DNA of 64,000 nucleotides from a virus, in the IMG/VR virus record IMGVR_UViG_3300015242_000025, positions 3,476 through 67,475 of that record, one strand, 5' to 3'. Below, piece by piece: positions 148-22,890 of this stretch. The notes under the pieces were generated by a model, which made no database searches, was not told where the DNA came from, and worked only from the letters and a program-made list of their open reading frames with translations. How positions within the stretch are numbered: the first letter of the stretch is position 1; every line of letters begins with the position of its first letter. Position numbers and translations under genes: made by a program.

Positions 148-177
148 GGTAAGATTCCTTTCATCTGCTATCCCTCA

Positions 178-233
178 TAGATAGTCAACGCGATTACGGA
201 GCACAATCACTCCGTAATCACGCAAAGCATCTA
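178..233 (-). repeat. post-stop hairpin element, copy 1
   Basis: TAGATGCTTTGCG-TGATTACGGAG-loop-CTCCGTAATCG-CGTTGACTATCTA; begins at the TAG of ORF 231..383. Confidence 0.8.
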
Positions 234-383
234 TGCCGACACTAAATTGATTTCAACGACTTTAGCGTCGGGATATTCGGCAGACATGATCTGCTTTAGC
301 ATCACCATGTCTTGCGCATAGGTTGTGTGTTTGATCAACAGACTGTCATGTTTGTTTGTAATTACCTGTAGATACATTATCAT
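231..383 (-). CDS. hypothetical 50-aa protein (MIMYLQVITNKHDSLL...)
   Basis: ATG 383 with AAAGGA RBS, TAG 231; below the ORF-track cutoff. Confidence 0.65.
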   Translation of the reverse strand: MIMYLQVITNKHDSLLIKHTTYAQDMVMLKQIMSAEYPDAKVVEINLVSA

Positions 384-407
384 TTCCTTTCATCGTTTTA
401 AATTACG

Positions 408-479
408 TGCGGTATATCGGATTTGAACCGATACCATCAGTTTGGAAGACTGACGTGCTGCCATTAACACTAATACCGC
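408..479 (-). tRNA. tRNA-Gly (anticodon TCC)
   Basis: Acceptor GCGGTAT/ATACCGC, anticodon arm TCAGT-CTTCCAA-ACTGA, T-arm GTTCAAATC; no encoded CCA. Confidence 0.93.
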
Positions 480-483
480 TTGA

Positions 484-534
484 TAGACAATCAACACCAT
501 TAACCGACTAGCGGTTAATGATGCAAATCATCTA
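484..534 (-). repeat. post-stop hairpin element, copy 2
   Basis: TAGATGATTTGCA-TCATTAACCG-CTAGT-CGGTTAATGG-TGTTGATTGTCTA; begins at the ArdC TAG. Confidence 0.8.
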
Positions 535-1416
535 TGCCGTGACTAGTTCTTTATCGTCGCTAGCTACGGTGTCTTGCGCGCTTCGGTTGAGTATGTAATT
601 TGCTGCCCGTTGTGCGGCAGCGGCAGCGGTCACAACCGCTTTAGTGTCCTCTTGGATGGTGCGAATCCAGCCGGCAATATAGGCTGAATTCTGTTCGATC
701 GTTTCGGGAAGGATTCCGGACTCACCGTTAAGGAATGCTGCCGTCATTTCAGCAATCAATTCCTCACGACCATATTTGGCCGAACCAAAATGATCAAATT
801 CAACGACGCCGGGACGATTCAAACGGCTTTCATGACCGGTTGAATGGCCCAACTCATGAAATGCAGTGGAGTAATACCGATTGACATCGGGAAAACTCTT
901 CTTAGGCGGCAATGTCACAGTGTCAGTGTTCGACTTGTAATAAGCCGCACTGCCTGAGTGATTAACCGTTGGTCCGTCAGGATATCCGGCCAGAATGGAT
1001 TCGGCCGACTCAATCGGTGAGAATTCTGATTCTTTGACTTCAGTGACCCTTGCCGGAACGTCAACGTTTTCGGTTTGGTCAAGGTTGTAAACCTTGTAGT
1101 AGCGCAAGTAAGCAAACTTGCGACTTTCGCCGGTTTCTTTGTCAATTCCGTCTATCATTTTCCAAAAGGTAATGATAGTTCCGTGTTGATTTGGCTTAAG
1201 GTTCCCGCCATGTTTTTTCATGGCATTAAACGTCATCCAAATTTTGGACTTATATTCCTGTACTAGCAAAAGGAACACATTCAGTCCCGTGTAGCGGTGG
1301 CCGTCAATCGAGCGCGGCGCGTCGGCTGCATCCCACGGCTTGCGCCATGGCACGGTGCCCTCTTGCAACGATTTGACAACCTGATCGGTGATAATTTCAT
1401 ACACCTTGTCAGTCAT
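532..1416 (-). CDS. ardC: ArdC-like antirestriction protein (ssDNA-binding domain + zincin-like metallopeptidase domain)
   Basis: PWRKPW, YTGLN, Y.VYNLDQTE, FHELGHSTGH.SRLNR, Y.REELIAE, SAYI.GW motifs. Confidence 0.92.
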   Translation of the reverse strand: MTDKVYEIITDQVVKSLQEGTVPWRKPWDAADAPRSIDGHRYTGLNVFLLLVQEYKSKIWMTFNAMKKHGGNLKPNQHGTIITFWKMIDGIDKETGESRKFAYLRYYKVYNLDQTENVDVPARVTEVKESEFSPIESAESILAGYPDGPTVNHSGSAAYYKSNTDTVTLPPKKSFPDVNRYYSTAFHELGHSTGHESRLNRPGVVEFDHFGSAKYGREELIAEMTAAFLNGESGILPETIEQNSAYIAGWIRTIQEDTKAVVTAAAAAQRAANYILNRSAQDTVASDDKELVTA

Positions 1417-1454
1417 CTTAATTTCCTAACCTCTAATAGATAACTGATTGTCGG

Positions 1455-1505
1455 TAGACAACCAACACTGACAACCGGCGGCCGGTTATCAATGCAAGTT
1501 AGCTA
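1455..1505 (-). repeat. post-stop hairpin element, copy 3
   Basis: TAGCTAACTTGCA-TTGATAACCGG-CCG-CCGGTTGTCAG-TGTTGGTTGTCTA; begins at the TAG of ORF 1503..1775. Confidence 0.78.
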
Positions 1506-1775
1506 CTTCATGTACGCGAAACTACGCGGATTGTCAGCAATAAATCTCACGCAATACTCGATTGACTCGTAACTGTCAAGCCATGCAGCATAGACGCGCC
1601 TTGCCTTAAGTGCCGACAGGTTATACGTGACCCGAATTGTTGCCAGGAATAACCGTTGGCTGTTTGCGTAGACTGGGCTGTCAGATTGTGCGATTGTGTA
1701 GTCCCAATTTGTGGATATAGCAAAATGCACATCTGCAACTTGCTGGCATAGCTCTTGATTAGTTGGCATGGTCAT
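1503..1775 (-). CDS. hypothetical protein (MTMPTNQELC..., 90 aa)
   Basis: AAGGA RBS just before ATG 1775; the longer ORF call runs through the ribozyme and is unlikely. Confidence 0.7.
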   Translation of the reverse strand: MTMPTNQELCQQVADVHFAISTNWDYTIAQSDSPVYANSQRLFLATIRVTYNLSALKARRVYAAWLDSYESIEYCVRFIADNPRSFAYMK

Positions 1776-1787
1776 GGTGAATTCCTT

Positions 1788-1848
1788 AGGTCTCGTCAGC
1801 GCAGCCAAATAGCTACGGACACGGTTTTGATCAACCGTGTTTCGACCT
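1788..1848 (-). ncRNA. type II hammerhead ribozyme
   Basis: AGGUC-GAAA-CACGGUU(GAUCAA)AACCGUG-UC^-CGUAGC(UAUUUG)GCUGCG-CUGACGA-GACCU: all core nucleotides and three stems present, GUC cleavage triplet. Confidence 0.9.
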
Positions 1849-1861
1849 TTCATTGTGCACG

Positions 1862-2002
1862 CTGCGCGTCCGCGCATGCTATGCATTTGGCTCGGCGGTT
1901 CCTAGTCGCCCGTTAGCTACCGGCCAAATCTCGCGGTTCGCGTCCGCGAGAACGAATAGAGTAGGGTGACAGCTTGGTTCTCAGGGCAAGATGGACGCGC
2001 GC
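1862..2002 (-). ncRNA. GC-rich multi-stem structured RNA upstream of the hammerhead
   Basis: GCGCGTCC/GGACGCGC closing helix, CTCGCGG/CCGCGAG hairpin, ATTTGGC/GCCAAAT junction with two internal hairpins. Confidence 0.55.
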
Positions 2003-2085
2003 GATAATGATCGCCTGCTGGCCAAAATGCGGAGCGCTGGACCCCTATGCAATTTTCGATCTTGCTGTGCGGTGGAACTACACTT

Positions 2086-2113
2086 AGCCTATCAGTCGAT
2101 TCTCAAAAGTCAA
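2086..2113 (-). promoter_or_regulatory. putative sigma70/HrdB-type early promoter
   Basis: TTGACT-16 nt-TAGGCT on the minus strand. Confidence 0.5.
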
Positions 2114-2707
2114 TAGTCAAAATAGCTGAAACCGGACTTTGAAAGATTACGGTTAGGTAACGATAGTCAATGTCTGATTAATGTTCATCATACCCAAATC
2201 ATGGACCCCTCATGTCCGTTTATCAAGATCATCTTAGGCGCCTAGCGGTCGGTCCGGGTCGGCGTCGCTGGCCAGCGCGACCGGCTGTGTGCCCCGCTGC
2301 CAGTCTGGACCGCCCCGTGCGCGTTAGCGTACCCGCCGGCATGGGAGAGGCTTCTAAAACTTCGTTTCATCAGCTAACGATCCTTGTATGTACGTAATGT
2401 CCGATTCACTCGAGGTCGCCCGTCCCTGGCAAACTGGACATGACTTGTGCTGGCCCTGAGAGCAATGCTGAGAGCTTTGGGTATGACTTGGATGCAATCC
2501 CTTTGCCTATGTGATTTGATCGCTCTCCGTTGACTGACCACATATATAAGGGATTCCTACAGAGCAATTCAGACATCAATGTCATAACTTCATCTATCGG
2601 TCTATATGTGTTGATCTATTTTGGACAGACAACATCGTTTATCAAATTTCCTATACGATTTTTTGATAACGTTTTCCCAATTTTCATATTTTCTACATGA
2701 TTTTGAG

Positions 2708-3118
2708 TCACTCAATTGGAACAGTACTAAACTTAAATCGAGATGTGGGAATGTTTGCAGCCTCCGCAAAGTCAGCGCACTTAGTTGCACCACGTGAATT
2801 GTCAAGGATGAATGCAAGACATTTATCTGCGCCAAGTGAAACCATAAACTTATTGCGTATTTGTCCTGCAGCTTTACCTATCACTCGCCACTGTACCGAT
2901 GTAACTTTGTGCGGTTCATGTTCCCATGGTTCGCCTAATTCGTTTTTATGATAAAGTGCACATTGTTTTGCTGTTTGATCTCCTCCACTAGCATCACCAT
3001 GAACAATAGTAATAAGTTCATTCTTTTTAGCCAAACTTGCGACTAATTCAATTTCTCGCCACATAAAATTATTATCAGCAGCTGGCCATGTACGACTAGC
3101 TGTTATGAGAATTCTCAT
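2708..3118 (-). CDS. SLOG-family (YspA/DUF2493-like) protein
   Basis: MRILITASRTW, IVHGDASGGD, AAGQIRN.FM, SRGAT motifs; ATGA overlap with the upstream ORF. Confidence 0.8.
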   Translation of the reverse strand: MRILITASRTWPAADNNFMWREIELVASLAKKNELITIVHGDASGGDQTAKQCALYHKNELGEPWEHEPHKVTSVQWRVIGKAAGQIRNKFMVSLGADKCLAFILDNSRGATKCADFAEAANIPTSRFKFSTVPIE

Positions 3119-3300
3119 TTTAATGTCAATTCCCAACTTGGATCATCTACTTCCAAGGTTAATATAAAGTCTCCATCAATATGCTCAGCATTAAGTACTT
3201 TTCCAATTCCTTTGTTAGTATTAAAACTTTGTCCAATTAAATCTTGTAAAGCTCCATCTGTCCATTGTTTATCATTGTGATAATATAATTTAACTTTCAT
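3115..3300 (-). CDS. hypothetical protein
   Basis: Tightly packed ORF with ATGA overlaps. Confidence 0.6.
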   Translation of the reverse strand: MKVKLYYHNDKQWTDGALQDLIGQSFNTNKGIGKVLNAEHIDGDFILTLEVDDPSWELTLK

Positions 3301-3677: not shown

Positions 3678-4673
3678 TTAATATTGTCCCTTTACCTGAT
3701 CATAAATCCATTCATAGGTTGTTTCAATACCTGATCGTAACGAAGTTGTCGGTTCCCAACCAATTTTAGCTTTAATGAGAGAACTATCGCTATTACGTCC
3801 GCGAACACCCTGCGGTTTATCCAGTTGATAATATCGAGTTAATTTAACATTAGCAATTTCTTCAATTATATCTAGCAATCCATTGATAGAAATTAATTCT
3901 TCACTACCAACATTAAATGGATAAAAATAATTACTATTTGTAATTTTAATAGTACCATCTACACAATCATCTACATAAAGGAATGAACGTGTTTGCTCTC
4001 CATCTCCCCATATATCGATAGTGTGATCTTTAGTAATAACAGCTTGCGCTACTTTACGGCACAATGCAGCGGGAGCCTTTTCATGTCCATCATTCCAACT
4101 ACCATGCGGACCAAAAATATTATGATAACGTCCAATACGAGTTTGTAAATGACGCTCTATGTTATGACATTGCATAACATGTTCACCATAAAGTTTTTCC
4201 CAACCATACCCCGGTTCTGGGTCGGCAGGAATAGCAAAGTCTTCACGTAATGCACCGACATTAGGATTAATCTGTGCCCATTGTGGATAGACACATGCAG
4301 AAGATGAAAAGAAAATACGTTGATCAGTCTGACACATATTTAACAATGCAATGGTGTCAACAATATTTTCACTACACTTCACAAGATGATTAGTGATGTA
4401 ACCTATTCCACCCATGTTAGCGGCTAAATGATAAACATCATCAATAATACCAAGAGAAAACATACTTTCATTTAAATCACGTACAGAAATACTGTAATTA
4501 TTAGCACGATGATGAAGTTGCCACCAACGATTAATTGGTTTAATATCTACAGCAAAAACATTATGTCCATTGTTCAAAAGTTTTTTAACTAAGTGTCCGC
4601 CAATAAATCCCCCCGCTCCAGTGACGAGAATATTCCTACTTCGTAAATTAGCATCACTTTCTGTCCATGCCAT
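3678..4673 (-). CDS. NAD-dependent epimerase, GDP-mannose 3,5-epimerase-like
   Basis: TGAGGFIG, LAANMGGIG, SSACVYP, YGWEK, HNIFGP.GSW..G.EKAPAA.CRK, WGDGEQTRSF, GVRGRNSD; likely start MAWTE at 4673. Confidence 0.88.
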   Translation of the reverse strand: MAWTESDANLRSRNILVTGAGGFIGGHLVKKLLNNGHNVFAVDIKPINRWWQLHHRANNYSISVRDLNESMFSLGIIDDVYHLAANMGGIGYITNHLVKCSENIVDTIALLNMCQTDQRIFFSSSACVYPQWAQINPNVGALREDFAIPADPEPGYGWEKLYGEHVMQCHNIERHLQTRIGRYHNIFGPHGSWNDGHEKAPAALCRKVAQAVITKDHTIDIWGDGEQTRSFLYVDDCVDGTIKITNSNYFYPFNVGSEELISINGLLDIIEEIANVKLTRYYQLDKPQGVRGRNSDSSLIKAKIGWEPTTSLRSGIETTYEWIYDQVKGQY

Positions 4674-8157: not shown

Positions 8158-9687
8158 CTATTCTCCATTTTCAATGAATCCATCATATCGTTTCAATGGA
8201 TTCTCTGTGTGGTATAGACCTACAATTGCATCATCAACCCGAGAGCCATCATCAAATAAATTACATATAGAAAAGAAAGGACAATCGTATGAACAATTCT
8301 CTCCTGGATTTGGATATGCAATAGTCAGAGGATTAGCGCCCGCGTCCAACTGATCTTGAGCTGTGAGTATATCGCGAGTTGCACTCAGAAGTCTAGTCTT
8401 ATATGCATCAATTTGATATTGATTATGTGTTACAGGAACTCGATCAAAGAATGGAGGATTAGCGGCACGTGTACGTTTCACTTTACGCAACATGTTATAT
8501 AGAGCACCGTCACAGCGCTCTTGACCTTGTTCAGTATTCAAATACTCCAACAAATGATAATGCAACATTTGCGGGTTAAGATGTAGCGTTTTTCTTGGCA
8601 TAGCAAAGTTTTGAACTGTCTTGTGATCCATAAATAAACGTACATTATCTGAGACACGAACAATACGAGCATCTAGTAAAGCAATTGCCTTTACTGGACG
8701 CATATCATGTTCGCGAATACTTGGTTTATAACCCATATCAACAGTGAGGTCAGCAGTAATAGCTGTTTCAGATGCGATTACTTTATAGTTAGAATCCTCT
8801 CCACTATCAGTAATCCATTCAATATAACCTTCAATCATGGCGCGTTCTAGACCAACGGCATCATTGAATTTAACTGACAATTCTTCTAACTGTTGTTCAT
8901 CATTTGTTTGTGCAGCAATTTGTGTCCAGTCATCTACAATGGCACGTTCCAAGGCGTCCCGTGGATCAGTAGGAGTTTGTCCATCAGGAACATAATATGC
9001 TGCCAATGCACGATGAACCCTATTACCAGTGTCCAAAGGAGAAAGATAATCACGATAGTTAGATGTCAATTCCCTATACCACTGCAACCACCATTTACGC
9101 CTACACCGTTGCCACGTAGAAATCTCACTGTTACTGATTAATTTAATTCCATCACGTGGTGATGTTAATTCTTTGATTCCACTATCAAACGTAGCTTTTA
9201 TCTCTTCAATTGTTTCGTCAGATGGATAGGCATAGTTTTCTTCTATCTCATCGGTTGATAATGTAACTTCAACATTGCTAAGATCAAATTCATTATTAGT
9301 AGAATTATGAACAAATTGATTTGATTCGTCTATATCTTCAGAGATATGCACACCATTAGCGCGTAATGCAGCGTCTAACCGCGCGGCGCGTTCATCTCCA
9401 GTTTCTCCTTTTTGTCTACCCTTTAGCACAGTAGGACTATTAGATTGGTCGTTATTATGCCTGCCCTGTCTTTTATCCCACAACTCCTGCAATTTTTTGA
9501 TGATAATTTTTCGCTCACCTGGAGAACGAAAATCATTTTTCTTTTCAATGCGAGTAATGGTTGTGGATGTAGTAAAATTACAAAGATCATTCAACTGTGC
9601 AGGAGTAAGTCCAGCATCTAAACGTAAATTCTTTACCCACTCTCCAGTTAGTTCTTCTGGAGTATTGGGGAATTCTGTTCTAGCCAT
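8158..9687 (-). CDS. Cas4/AddB-like PD-(D/E)XK exonuclease with N-terminal XRE-type HTH
   Basis: SNSEI.TWQRCRRKW, G..VH.AL, LD...DHKT, QM.HY, C...CPF..IC; N-terminal LRLDAGLTPAQL...ITRIEK. Confidence 0.85.
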   Translation of the reverse strand: MARTEFPNTPEELTGEWVKNLRLDAGLTPAQLNDLCNFTTSTTITRIEKKNDFRSPGERKIIIKKLQELWDKRQGRHNNDQSNSPTVLKGRQKGETGDERAARLDAALRANGVHISEDIDESNQFVHNSTNNEFDLSNVEVTLSTDEIEENYAYPSDETIEEIKATFDSGIKELTSPRDGIKLISNSEISTWQRCRRKWWLQWYRELTSNYRDYLSPLDTGNRVHRALAAYYVPDGQTPTDPRDALERAIVDDWTQIAAQTNDEQQLEELSVKFNDAVGLERAMIEGYIEWITDSGEDSNYKVIASETAITADLTVDMGYKPSIREHDMRPVKAIALLDARIVRVSDNVRLFMDHKTVQNFAMPRKTLHLNPQMLHYHLLEYLNTEQGQERCDGALYNMLRKVKRTRAANPPFFDRVPVTHNQYQIDAYKTRLLSATRDILTAQDQLDAGANPLTIAYPNPGENCSYDCPFFSICNLFDDGSRVDDAIVGLYHTENPLKRYDGFIENGE

Positions 9688-17247: not shown

Positions 17248-17275
17248 CTATTTTCTCCTTTGTTTTTATAAAACG

Positions 17276-17359
17276 TACGGGTAACGGGACTCGAACCCGT
17301 AAGTCCTTTCAGACAATTGATTTTAAGTCAATCGCGGTTGCCAATTTCGCCATACCCGC
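17276..17359 (-). tRNA. tRNA-Leu (anticodon TAA)
   Basis: GCGGGTA/TACCCGT acceptor, ATTGA-CTTAAAA-TCAAT anticodon arm, long variable arm, GTTCGAGTC T-arm. Confidence 0.93.
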
Positions 17360-21723: not shown

Positions 21724-22890
21724 ATGGCTTTAGCAGAATCATTTACAGCGCCTAATGTCGATCCAGAAATGGCATCAGAGCACTTACAGATTTTACATGG
21801 TAGTGCACAAGGATTAATTAGTCTTGTATTATTAGGAAGTGAGAAAAGGGAACGTCATTGTTTCTTTTCAACTGATGATATTGAAGAAACATCATATGAA
21901 GATTCACAGTATGGATTACAGGATATAGCTGGAGAGCAATGGAATATTTATATTGCTTGTTCTACATTTAAAGAACGACCAGAAAAAGGTAGAGGAAATA
22001 GGGATAATGTTTTATCCATTCCGGGTGTGTGGGCAGATCTTGATGTAAAGCCTGATACGGAAGGATTCTTTCATAGTACTGAAGAAATTGATCGATACAT
22101 GGAATTGTTGCCACAACCGACAATTGAAATAACCACGGGTAGTGGGGGAAAACATTTATATTGGCTTACACCGCCTGATCATCCTTTGTCTGCTATTGAT
22201 GGTTCAAAGTTACTAATGCAGTGGCGTGATTTTTTGTTGTATGAAGCACAAGGATTATCCATTGATTTTGTGCAAGATTCAGCGCGTATTATGCGTCTTG
22301 CTGGCACACTTCGTTGGCCTAAAGGAACTGATGATCATATTCAAACACCGCGTCTCGTAGAGATTAAAAAAGTAGGTCCGCGTTGTGATGTTAAGGAATT
22401 ACGTTTAATCAGTGCATTCGCACACCAAAAAATGACAGTGTTGCGAGAACAACAACATGCCGAGCGTTCAGCAATAGTAGGTAAACGGCATGAGGAAATG
22501 GAAAATCAAGGTGCAGATTTAAATTTATATAAAGCAGCTGTAGGTCGATTTAATGCATTACAAGATTGGGGTTCATTACTAGAAAAAACAGGATGGACAT
22601 TACATTCTGATGAAAGAGATAAAAGTGCACACTGTCGTTTTTGGATTCGTCCAGGTAAAGGTTTAGGTGCGTCTAAATCAGCTGCAACAGATTTTATATA
22701 CTCGGATGGAATACCATTCTACGGAATGACGATTTATTCTAACGATCCGTCAATGGAAGATATTATAGAGGAAAAAGATTCTTCAGAACACGATATTTGT
22801 TCAAAATGGAATTATGCATTAAAACGTTTGTTTAATAATGATGAAGCTGATTTGTATATGACCGTTGTTGAAAATGGAGGAACATTATGA
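21724..22890 (+). CDS. AEP/RepB-like DNA primase
   Basis: VWADLD, TGSGGKHLYW, D.ARIMRLAGT; C-terminal W.RPGK...SA.T domain. Confidence 0.8.
   Translation: MALAESFTAPNVDPEMASEHLQILHGSAQGLISLVLLGSEKRERHCFFSTDDIEETSYEDSQYGLQDIAGEQWNIYIACSTFKERPEKGRGNRDNVLSIPGVWADLDVKPDTEGFFHSTEEIDRYMELLPQPTIEITTGSGGKHLYWLTPPDHPLSAIDGSKLLMQWRDFLLYEAQGLSIDFVQDSARIMRLAGTLRWPKGTDDHIQTPRLVEIKKVGPRCDVKELRLISAFAHQKMTVLREQQHAERSAIVGKRHEEMENQGADLNLYKAAVGRFNALQDWGSLLEKTGWTLHSDERDKSAHCRFWIRPGKGLGASKSAATDFIYSDGIPFYGMTIYSNDPSMEDIIEEKDSSEHDICSKWNYALKRLFNNDEADLYMTVVENGGTL

What the first reader, a model, noticed from the sequence alone, without database searches (positions are those of the whole stretch)
1788..1848. Intact type II hammerhead ribozyme abutting the RBS of the first early gene
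Seen: the minus strand carries every hammerhead core element (CUGACGA, GAAA, GUC triplet) with stem II AGGUC/GACCU, stem III CACGGUU/AACCGUG and stem I CGUAGC/GCUGCG. Predicted cleavage is between 1818 and 1817. Stem II ends immediately before the AAGGA RBS of ORF 1503..1775. Established: hammerhead cleavage leaves a 5'-OH and a 2',3'-cyclic phosphate. Inference: the early mRNA (ORF, ArdC, tRNA) gets a host-independent 5'-OH end, possibly stabilising it, and the upstream structured RNA is released.
Basis: partly seen in the sequence, partly recalled or inferred. Interest (0 to 1): 0.82.

Follow-up and report, generated by a model that had tools for sequence, protein, structure and literature searches.

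The report
Phage hammerhead ribozyme before ArdC cassette
A soil phage carries a complete self-cutting hammerhead RNA directly in front of the ribosome-binding site of a small gene followed by an anti-restriction gene, which is a good new example of an arrangement known in phages since 2011 rather than a new kind of element.

Summary
The minus strand 1848..1788 reads AGGUC-GAAA-[stem-loop III]-C|-[stem-loop I]-CUGACGA-GACCU. All 13 core nucleotides are present, the three pairs next to the core are intact, and stem II is open (type II). The predicted cut lies between 1818 and 1817. The AAGGA Shine-Dalgarno begins at the base after stem II, and the ATG is at 1775. The free-energy minimum is this three-way junction (z -5.18). 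None of 300 genome shuffles gave an equal motif.

Rfam finds nothing at any threshold. However, its type II model also stayed under its cut-off for every other clear phage type II hammerhead I tested. A model built from 89 phage hammerheads scores the site at 50.1 bits.

Hammerheads of this subfamily usually sit between a stop codon and the next RBS, and hammerheads repeatedly flank ArdC genes.

Most likely the ribozyme cuts the transcript and gives the ORF90-ArdC-tRNA RNA a 5'-OH end that starts in a hairpin. Cleavage, "early" timing and stabilisation are all untested. The upstream leader is not unusually structured.

This is a new member of a known kind (Perreault 2011). The scan has noted similar phage hammerheads on other genomes.

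The parts
1788..1848 (-). Complete type II hammerhead ribozyme (61 nt)
   Evidence: Sequence. The MFE fold is the three-way junction, z -5.18. It is the only descriptor hit in the genome, with 0 of 300 shuffles as good. Own covariance model R1 gives 50.1 bits, E 4.2e-14, full length.
1844..1848 (-). Stem II, 5'-proximal strand AGGUC (11.x side); after the cut it stays on the 5' product
   Evidence: Pairs with GACCU at 1792-1788. GGUC/GACC was fixed by my search pattern. The A before GGUC, which the pattern did not fix, is invariant in 89 of 89 aligned phage hammerheads.
1841..1843 (-). Core G12 A13 A14
   Evidence: Sequence.
1819..1840 (-). Stem-loop III: ACACGGUU / GAUCAA / AACCGUGU, with A15.1-U16.1 next to the core
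   Evidence: The matching columns covary in the family alignment.
1817..1818 (-). Cleavage site: C17 (1818) | C1.1 (1817). The 3' product would begin with 5'-OH C1817.
   Evidence: Position follows from the hammerhead numbering applied to the sequence. Cleavage itself was not tested.
1800..1817 (-). Stem-loop I: CGUAGC / UAUUUG / GCUGCG. After cleavage it becomes the 5'-terminal hairpin of the downstream RNA.
   Evidence: The same UAUUUG loop with four different, fully paired stem I sequences occurs in 4 distinct viral type II hammerheads.
1793..1799 (-). Core C3 U4 G5 A6 C7 G8 A9 (CUGACGA)
   Evidence: Sequence. A near-identical relative's protein differs only by T31M, which corresponds to ACG>AUG, i.e. 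C7>U at the one free core position.
1788..1792 (-). Stem II, 3'-proximal strand GACCU (10.x side)
1783..1787 (-). Shine-Dalgarno AAGGA. It starts at the base after stem II and lies 7 nt before the ATG.
   Evidence: Sequence.
1503..1775 (-). ORF90, a 90-aa protein of unknown family, first gene behind the ribozyme
   Evidence: No Pfam family and no PHROG. Only near-identical relatives were found. One source calls the 90-aa form (P0004); others call a 127-aa form from ATG 1886 that would read through the ribozyme.
532..1416 (-). ArdC-type anti-restriction protein (294 aa), second gene behind the ribozyme
   Evidence: Pfam ArdcN 2.6e-25 and MPTase-PolyVal 1.3e-35. 3673 relatives at E<=1e-10, the closest 54% identical.
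407..479 (-). tRNA-Gly(UCC), third gene of the cassette
   Evidence: ARAGORN. Rfam tRNA 66.3 bits.
1849..2707 (-). Gap of about 860 nt between the upstream SLOG-like gene (2708..3136) and the ribozyme, with no supported gene. Cleavage would detach it from the downstream mRNA.
   Evidence: Only short stop-to-stop frames. No Rfam match. Folding of 2085..1849 gives z -0.06.

Best explanation
The minus strand 1848..1788 encodes a genuine type II hammerhead ribozyme. I propose the following sequence of events.

1. The region is transcribed, either from a promoter somewhere in the ~860-nt gene-free stretch upstream or by read-through from the long minus-strand gene block.
2. The RNA folds into the three-way junction and cuts itself after C1818.
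3. The two products are held together only by the 5-bp stem II, so they separate.
4. The upstream piece keeps stem-loop III and a 2',3'-cyclic phosphate.
5. The downstream piece starts with a 5'-OH on C1817, which is the first base of the stem I hairpin. About 30 nt further on it carries the AAGGA Shine-Dalgarno and the ATG of ORF90, followed by ArdC and tRNA-Gly.

The net effect is that this anti-restriction cassette gets a fixed, short leader that does not depend on where transcription began. This is the same logic as the synthetic insulator RiboJ. Its 5' end (5'-OH in a terminal hairpin) should also be a poor entry point for nucleases that depend on a 5'-monophosphate.

Shown: the motif, its fold, its improbability by chance, its fit to a large phage subfamily, and its position relative to the RBS.

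Inferred: transcription across it, cleavage in vivo, product separation, and any gain in stability or translation.
For: Motif and fold:
- All 13 core nucleotides are present and all three core-adjacent pairs are intact. These are the acceptance criteria of Perreault 2011 (PMC3088659, methods passage read).
- The MFE fold is the junction, z -5.18, and it persists in a 346-nt context.
- 0 of 300 genome shuffles reach its stem strengths.

Fit to a phage subfamily:
- 122 of the 125 matches form stems I (>=4 bp) and III (>=3 bp).
- In an alignment of 89 of them, 98.0% of cells pair against 70.5% in shuffles, with 366 double-change cells against 121.
- Model R1 built from that alignment scores the window site at 50.1 bits, and the next best match in the window scores 13.2.
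- R1 also finds four hammerheads with other stem II sequences, not selected by my pattern, at 27-53 bits.
- The UAUUUG loop I recurs in 4 distinct viral hammerheads with covarying stem I.

Position relative to genes:
- Of 110 distinct instances, 81 have an ORF start within 30 nt downstream, and 61 of these also have an SD-like motif. The control gave 211 of 2200 random positions.
- 65 of the 110 have an upstream ORF stop within 10 nt, against 105 of 2200 in the control.

Link to ArdC:
- In the hammerhead loci, both ArdC genes sit just behind a hammerhead: L089 directly, and L116 after a 74-aa ORF, which is the same layout as here.
- In 80 ArdC loci, 5 carry same-strand hammerheads. Four of these start within -10..+11 nt of the ArdC stop. 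L175 brackets ORF135-ArdC with two hammerheads.

Natural variation:
- The only residue that differs in a near-identical relative maps to N7, the free core position.

Literature:
- Phage and prophage hammerheads flank genes, including ardA, and cleave in vitro and in E. coli. The HF1/HF2 early transcript 5' end maps within 3 nt of a hammerhead cut site (PMC3088659, passages read).
- RiboJ raised protein 2- to 10-fold and transcript about 2-fold (PMC6206723, abstract read).
Against: - Rfam gives no hammerhead match at the gathering score, at E<=10 on 501 bases, or for RF02276 on the genome. Other phage type II hammerheads at least scored 20.6-31.2 bits.
- The site departs from its subfamily at three strongly conserved positions. 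It has U instead of A/G after GACC (A/G in 88 of 89), a C-G instead of G-C pair closing loop I (G-C in 86 of 89), and a 6-nt rather than 5-nt loop I.
- No clear tertiary contact is seen. Only a 4-bp loop I/tail pairing with a G-U is possible, and across the family such pairings are no longer than in shuffled tails (mean 3.45 against 3.46). Fast cleavage at cellular Mg2+ is therefore not assured.
- No diverged relative of this locus was found, so there is no covariation for this particular copy.
- Unlike most family members, it has no gene ending just upstream.
- Gene callers also offer a 127-aa ORF that reads through it.
- Model R1 was trained on sequences chosen to share 23 bases with the site, which inflates its score.
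Confidence: 0.7

Rival explanations
1. The motif is intact in sequence but is a slow or inactive relic. It would have been carried in with a horizontally acquired, higher-GC ArdC cassette and would play no present role in expression.
For: - The region ~500-2550 has 44-63% GC against 38% for the genome.
- No upstream gene abuts the motif, unlike 65 of 110 family members.
- It deviates at three conserved subfamily positions.
- No tertiary contact was identified.
- Rfam is silent.
Against: - Every core base and all 19 stem pairs are intact. A relic would be expected to decay first in these positions.
- The one known substitution falls on the only free core base.
- The UAUUUG loop variant recurs with covarying stems.
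Confidence: 0.12
2. The ribozyme's main job is to make the 3' end of the upstream RNA. It would release or terminate a leader or read-through transcript with a 2',3'-cyclic phosphate (for example a non-coding RNA from 2085..1818), and the effect on ORF90 would be secondary.
For: - There are about 860 nt with no supported gene upstream.
- The stretch is GC-rich.
- A relative at ~95% identity conserves 2003-2228.
Against: - The leader folds no better than its shuffles (z -0.06).
- There is no Rfam match.
- The family-wide rule is tight coupling to the downstream RBS.
Confidence: 0.08
3. The sequence is coding. The real gene would be the 127-aa ORF from ATG 1886, and the hammerhead-like motif would be incidental.
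For: - The frame is open from 1886.
- Two of the three cluster members are recorded as 127 aa.
Against: - A canonical AAGGA-7 nt-ATG sits at 1775.
- One source calls the 90-aa form.
- The 37-residue extension is Arg-rich and has no relatives.
- A chance motif of this quality was seen in 0 of 300 shuffles.
- In the family, the ORF starts downstream of the ribozyme in 104 of 110 cases.
- An active ribozyme would in any case sever such an ORF.
Confidence: 0.04
4. Cleavage is conditional. A competing fold or a factor would gate it, so that the ribozyme works as a switch for ArdC expression rather than as a constitutive processing site.
For: - In the isolated 3' product, the 5' strand of stem I can instead pair with 1753-1747 inside ORF90.
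- A 4-bp loop I/SD pairing is possible.
- A scan note on another genome proposes cleavage-gated translation (e1-6054690; unchecked).
Against: - The hammerhead fold makes up 50% of the ensemble for the 68-nt element and survives in the 346-nt context.
- No upstream strand pairs with the SD.
- The alternative fold is no better than its shuffles (z -0.10).
Confidence: 0.05

Closest known systems
Type II hammerhead ribozymes of bacteria and (pro)phages (Perreault et al. 2011, PLoS Comput Biol, PMC3088659; Rfam RF02276)
   Same: - Identical catalytic core, with stems I and III capped and stem II open.
- Sits on the sense strand between phage genes.
- The paper already reports hammerheads flanking an anti-restriction gene (ardA), and one 13 nt before the first early ORF of a virus.
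   Different: - It does not reach any score with RF02276.
- It lacks the loop I/3'-tail pseudoknot that the Rfam consensus models.
- Stem II is 5 bp.
- It heads a cassette behind a long gene-free stretch instead of lying between two adjacent genes.
- The downstream anti-restriction gene is ArdC, not ArdA.
The AGGUC...GACC(R) subfamily of phage type II hammerheads seen here in at least 119 IMG/VR contigs
   Same: - Same stem II, the same C15.2-G16.2 pair and N7 = C (these were fixed by my pattern).
- Same invariant A before GGUC (not fixed by my pattern).
- Loop I begins with U and ends with G.
- The RBS follows within a few bases.
   Different: - U instead of A/G after GACC.
- C-G instead of G-C closing loop I.
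- A 6-nt UAUUUG loop, a minority variant also present in L103, L200, L201 and L202/L203.
- An 8-bp AT-richer stem III.
- No upstream stop codon next to it.
RiboJ, the synthetic hammerhead-based 5'-UTR insulator (Clifton et al. 2018, PMC6206723, abstract read)
   Same: A self-cleaving hammerhead placed just upstream of an RBS removes the variable leader. The mRNA then starts with a 5'-OH and a hairpin.
   Different: - RiboJ is an engineered derivative of a plant satellite RNA ribozyme (recalled, not checked here) with an added hairpin.
- The element in this window is natural, of type II topology, and untested.

Membership tests
Hammerhead ribozyme (class, criteria of Perreault 2011) | Core C3 U4 G5 A6 N7 G8 A9, G12 A13 A14, A15.1, U16.1, H17 | tested here: met
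   CUGACGA at 1799-1793, GAA at 1843-1841, A1840, U1819, C1818. The criteria were read in PMC3088659.
Hammerhead ribozyme (class, criteria of Perreault 2011) | No mispair directly next to the core (1.1-2.1, 10.1-11.1, 15.1-16.1), and no multiple mispairs or bulges in the stems | tested here: met
   C1817-G1800, G1792-C1844 and A1840-U1819. Stems of 6, 5 and 8 bp without bulges, with one U-G in stem I.
Hammerhead ribozyme, type II topology | Stems I and III closed by loops, stem II open | tested here: met
   The MFE and centroid structures agree on this. It is the only type II descriptor hit in the genome.
Hammerhead ribozyme (class) | Stems supported by covariation among relatives | tested here: inconclusive
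   Family level: met. This locus: relatives are identical over the element (X2) or differ only at N7. No diverged copy was found.
Hammerhead ribozyme (class) | Site-specific self-cleavage giving a 2',3'-cyclic phosphate and a 5'-OH | not testable with these tools
   No RNA run is listed for this DNA. Needs a bench assay.
Rfam RF02276 Hammerhead_II (database family) | Score at or above the gathering cut-off of 37 bits | tested here: not met
   No match at the gathering score, at E<=10 on 501 bases, or on the whole genome. Calibration: 0 of 12 hammerhead-bearing loci reached the cut-off. The six other type II hammerheads that matched at all scored 20.6-31.2 bits, and three further descriptor-perfect type II copies (L123, L103, L201) did not appear at E<=1.
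Pseudoknot-type type II hammerheads (Perreault 2011, Fig. 2 text) | Pseudoknot of >=4 bp between loop I and the tail just after stem II | tested here: inconclusive
   Pairing of AUUU (loop I) with GAAU (1784-1781) is possible, 4 bp including a G-U. Across 103 instances the best pairing is no longer than with shuffled tails (3.45 against 3.46).
AGGUC...GACC(R) phage subfamily (defined here) | A before GGUC; purine after GACC; G-C pair closing a U...G loop I | tested here: inconclusive
   The A before GGUC and the U...G loop ends are met. The purine after GACC is not met (U), and the closing pair is C-G. R1 score is 50.1 bits, but the model was trained on pattern-selected sequences.

The most novel reading that the evidence does not exclude
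Phage type II hammerheads of this subfamily would be dedicated cistron separators, placed with near-codon precision: a median of 3 nt after a stop codon and 21 nt before the next start. Anti-restriction ArdC units would be a preferred cargo.

On this reading the ribozyme travels with ORF-ArdC cassettes as a portable, host-independent expression insulator. In this phage it would have arrived with a higher-GC cassette whose genes are each followed by a conserved TAG-anchored hairpin. Together these would form an RNA-processing-defined mobile module.
Probability: 0.3. Interest if true: 0.55.

Novelty: new member of a known kind. Interest (0 to 1): 0.4.

Why it matters
The biological role of bacterial and phage hammerheads is still open (review PMC6765202, section on bacteria read). 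This copy is a clean single test case. One ribozyme is fused to one RBS, ahead of a gene pair whose product (ArdC) should be needed immediately on DNA entry, so a core-dead mutant would have a measurable readout.

It also shows that the curated Rfam type II model misses a large phage subfamily. Hammerhead counts in viromes that rest on Rfam cut-offs are therefore underestimates.

The recurrent hammerhead-ArdC linkage extends the ardA observation of 2011 to a second, unrelated anti-restriction family.

Tried and rejected
**Rfam.** It gave nothing at the site. It also gave nothing in the leader 1840-2760, and nothing beyond the tRNA in 1-1700. I do not treat this as a refutation, because the model is insensitive here.

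**Relatives of the locus.**
- Single-protein scans of viral contigs with ORF90 and ArdC found none.
- A lineage-specific DNA pattern found none in viral contigs and none in metagenome contigs.
- blastn against the phage collection found nothing.
- The homolog search for ORF127 returned only its own cluster.

**Sequencing runs.**
- No RNA holder is listed, so expression and read ends could not be examined.
- Contigs of X2 are identical over 1000-2060.
- X3 has no contig laid over the ribozyme.

**Pseudoknot hypothesis (loop I with the tail).** It is no better than chance across the family.

**'Structured upstream RNA'.** z is -0.06.

**Promoter.** The scan gave 10 sites against 6.4 +/- 2.5 in shuffles. 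TTGACTAT occurs 8 times against 3.5 expected, with 3 of 100 shuffles at least as high. No promoter can be assigned.

**Second hammerhead.**
- The R1 hit at 9210-9275 (13.2 bits) has no GAAA or stems.
- A type I descriptor hit at about 22073-22196 (+) lies inside a 388-aa ORF, with AT-rich stems and long loops. I rejected it as chance.

**ORF90 identity.**
- No Pfam family and no PHROG.
- The Atlas best score is 0.80, which is a lead only.
- It shows no similarity to the small ORF of L116.

**Repeats in 1-2800.** Only the TAG-anchored hairpins and a short CGCGGACGCG motif.

**Papers.**
- Searches found no paper that quantifies stop-hammerhead-RBS spacing or a hammerhead-ArdC link. These were full-text searches of the held library only.
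- Supplements were closed, so Dataset S1 and Figures S1-S6 of PMC3088659 were not seen. They may already list members of this subfamily or ArdC contexts.

Full report
**What is there.**

The window is 64,000 of the 67,475 bases of one virus record, with 38% GC. Read on the minus strand, 1848..1788 is AGGUC GAA ACACGGUU-GAUCAA-AACCGUGU C CGUAGC-UAUUUG-GCUGCG CUGACGA GACCU. It is followed at once by AAGGA, then by seven bases and the ATG at 1775.

In hammerhead numbering this gives:
- C3-A9 (N7 = C), G12-A14, A15.1-U16.1 and C17.
- Closing pairs C1.1-G2.1 and G10.1-C11.1.
- Stems of 6 bp (I), 5 bp (II) and 8 bp (III).
- Stem II open, which makes it type II.

These are exactly the acceptance criteria used by Perreault et al. 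2011 (PMC3088659, methods passage).

**Is it more than chance?**

The 68-nt element folds into this three-way junction as its free-energy minimum. The energy is -25.8 kcal/mol, the fold is half of the ensemble, z is -5.18, and 0 of 200 shuffles fold as well. The junction survives when 346 nt are folded.

A descriptor I wrote finds this one site in the whole genome over both strands. In 300 dinucleotide-preserving shuffles it found:
- 26 hits at relaxed stem lengths,
- 1 hit at intermediate lengths,
- 0 hits at the observed lengths.

**The negative result.**

- none at gathering scores on the window,
- none at E<=10 on 501 bases around the site,
- none for RF02276 over the genome.

I therefore asked how that model treats other clear phage type II hammerheads:
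- Twelve loci that each hold a perfect-core copy gave no match at the gathering score.
- At E-value thresholds the matched copies scored 31.2, 26.7 and 20.6 bits and 26.6, 26.2 and 26.0 bits. All are below the 37-bit cut-off.
- Three further descriptor-perfect type II copies did not appear at E<=1.

The Rfam consensus has a 2-bp stem II and a 3' tail that forms a pseudoknot with loop I (alignment shown). This subfamily lacks that feature. The negative result is real and is listed as evidence against, but it weighs little.

**Relatives of the motif.**

Of its 125 matches, 122 form stem I (>=4 bp) and stem III (>=3 bp) in the right places.

I aligned 89 distinct copies of <=62 nt, dropping one malformed copy and leaving out longer ones. 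On that alignment:
- 98.0% of cells pair, against 70.5% in shuffles.
- 366 cells show changes on both sides, against 121 in shuffles.
- Sliding the partner columns drops pairing to 28-49%.

A covariance model built from this alignment scores the window site at 50.1 bits (E 4e-14, full length). The next best match scores 13.2 bits and is not a hammerhead. This score is inflated, because the training set was chosen to share 23 bases with the site. However, the model also recovers four hammerheads with different stem II sequences, not selected by the pattern, at 27-53 bits.

The alignment shows invariants that I had not imposed:
- A before GGUC in 89 of 89.
- A purine after GACC in 88 of 89.
- A G-C pair closing a U...G loop I in 86 of 89.

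The window copy keeps the first of these and the loop ends. It differs in having U after GACC (which gives a fifth stem II pair), a C-G closing pair, and a 6-nt loop UAUUUG. That loop is itself recurrent. Four distinct viral hammerheads carry it on four different, fully paired stem I sequences.

**Relatives of the locus.**

These are scarce:
- ORF90 has only near-identical relatives.
- One differs by a single residue, T31M. This corresponds to ACG>AUG in CUGACGA, which is C7>U at the only unconstrained core position. It is one event, so it is only an anecdote.
- A second soil run holds an identical copy. A ~92-95% relative has no contig laid over the ribozyme.
- Lineage-specific patterns found nothing more.

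There is therefore no covariation evidence for this particular copy.

**Context.**

All neighbouring genes lie on the minus strand. In the direction of transcription the order is as follows:
- An SLOG-like gene at 2708..3136 (Pfam YAcAr, 24.8 bits, below its 28.2-bit cut-off).
- About 860 nt with no supported gene and no Rfam match. The last 237 nt fold like their shuffles (z -0.06).
- The ribozyme.
- ORF90, with no family.
- ArdC.
- tRNA-Gly(UCC).

The stretch ~500-2550 has 44-63% GC, well above the rest of the genome. Each of ORF90, ArdC and the ORF at 231..383 is followed by a related hairpin that starts at its TAG stop. That lead came from scan note e1-6179719.

No promoter can be assigned.

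The 127-aa reading frame from ATG 1886 would run through the ribozyme. I judge the 90-aa form with its canonical RBS the likelier gene, and one source calls it that way.

**The layout is the rule for this subfamily.**

I examined 110 distinct instances, 109 viral plus the window:
- 104 have an ORF of >=40 aa starting within 150 nt downstream, at a median of 21 nt.
- 81 have the start within 30 nt.
- 61 have the start within 30 nt together with an SD-like motif. The control gave 211 of 2200 random positions.
- 65 have the stop of a >=50-codon frame within 10 nt upstream, at a median of 3 nt. The control gave 105 of 2200.

These ORF calls are crude (first ATG/GTG/TTG giving >=40 aa). At 13 nt, the window copy is among the tightest on the RBS side. 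It is atypical in having no gene ending just upstream.

**Hammerheads and ArdC.**

The 92 first downstream ORFs are mostly small proteins without a family, and one of them is ArdC.

tblastn with the window ArdC over all 119 hammerhead loci (1.12 Mb) finds two ArdC genes, and both are just behind a hammerhead:
- L089: hammerhead, 29 nt, then ArdC.
- L116: hammerhead, a 74-aa ORF, then ArdC. This is the same layout as here, with an unrelated small ORF.

In the other direction, I searched 80 ArdC loci from viral contigs (491 kb) with descriptors for all three topologies:
- They hold 7 hammerheads in 5 loci, all on the ArdC strand.
- Four of them start within -10..+11 nt of the ArdC stop.
- One lies 157 nt after the ArdC stop.
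- In L175, a type III and a type I hammerhead bracket an ORF135-ArdC pair.

Perreault 2011 reported the same for ardA in Agrobacterium and Legionella (passages read). An unchecked scan note on another genome also mentions hammerheads bracketing ardC (e1-6237393).

**Mechanism.**

After the cut, the two products share only the 5-bp stem II, so they should part readily. This is inference from the topology.

The downstream RNA would begin with 5'-OH C1817, paired into the stem I hairpin. About 30 nt later come the SD and the ATG. From established knowledge (recalled, not checked here):
- RNase E and RNase J are stimulated by a 5'-monophosphate.
- 5'-terminal hairpins stabilise bacterial mRNAs.

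The synthetic insulator RiboJ, also a hammerhead before an RBS, raised protein 2- to 10-fold and transcript about 2-fold (PMC6206723, abstract).

I found no anti-RBS strand and no convincing pseudoknot. An alternative fold of the 3' product is no better than its shuffles. I therefore favour constitutive processing over a switch.

**Verdict.**

- The element is a new member of a known kind and is not detected by Rfam.
- The review literature still calls the function of such ribozymes undefined (PMC6765202, section read). This makes the copy a convenient test case rather than a surprise.
- The scan has already noted comparable phage hammerheads on other genomes.

Noticed in passing
L120-L199 (ArdC loci), esp. 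L123:3845-3901, L139:3843-3906, L159:3844-3891, L175:2334-2392 and 3846-3900, L131:4037-4090; L089:2005-2057; L116:584-638: Hammerheads of types I, II and III recur right at the borders of ArdC genes in viral contigs. Five of 80 ArdC loci carry them. Both ArdC genes found in the 119 hammerhead loci sit just behind one. In L175 two hammerheads bracket an ORF135-ArdC pair.
   Followed up: partly
alignment A2 (89 viral type II hammerheads, L002-L119): The subfamily has invariants beyond the core: A before GGUC (89 of 89), a purine after GACC (88 of 89), and G-C closing a U...G loop I (86 of 89). No loop I/tail pseudoknot is enriched. This suggests a tertiary contact other than the one Rfam models.
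   Followed up: partly
L014, L031, L139, L159, L123, L103, L201: Rfam RF02276 stayed below its 37-bit gathering score for every clear phage type II hammerhead I tested (20.6-31.2 bits, or no match at all). Annotation that relies on Rfam cut-offs therefore misses this subfamily.
   Followed up: yes
window 1445-1510, 474-539, 168-238 (minus strand): Three related hairpin elements each start at the TAG stop of ORF90, ArdC and the ORF at 231..383. Their outer arms are conserved and their inner stems vary. The lead came from scan note e1-6179719, and an alignment confirmed it.
   Followed up: partly
window ~500-2550: GC content is 44-63% here against 38% for the genome and about 33% just beyond 2550. 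The ribozyme-ORF90-ArdC block looks like an acquired module.
   Followed up: no
window 1776-2707: About 930 nt before the ORF90 start codon, ribozyme included, have no ORF with a family and no Rfam match. A ~95% identical relative (run X3) covers 2003-2352 and shows loose ends at 2213, 2251 and 2287.
   Followed up: partly
window 407-479 and 17275-17359 (minus strand): tRNA-Gly(UCC) and tRNA-Leu(UAA) are the only two tRNAs in the first 20 kb. The first lies directly behind ArdC.
   Followed up: no
window ~22073-22196 (+): A type I hammerhead descriptor hit lies inside a 388-aa ORF, with AT-rich 4-6 bp stems and loops of about 30 nt. I judged it a chance match.
   Followed up: yes
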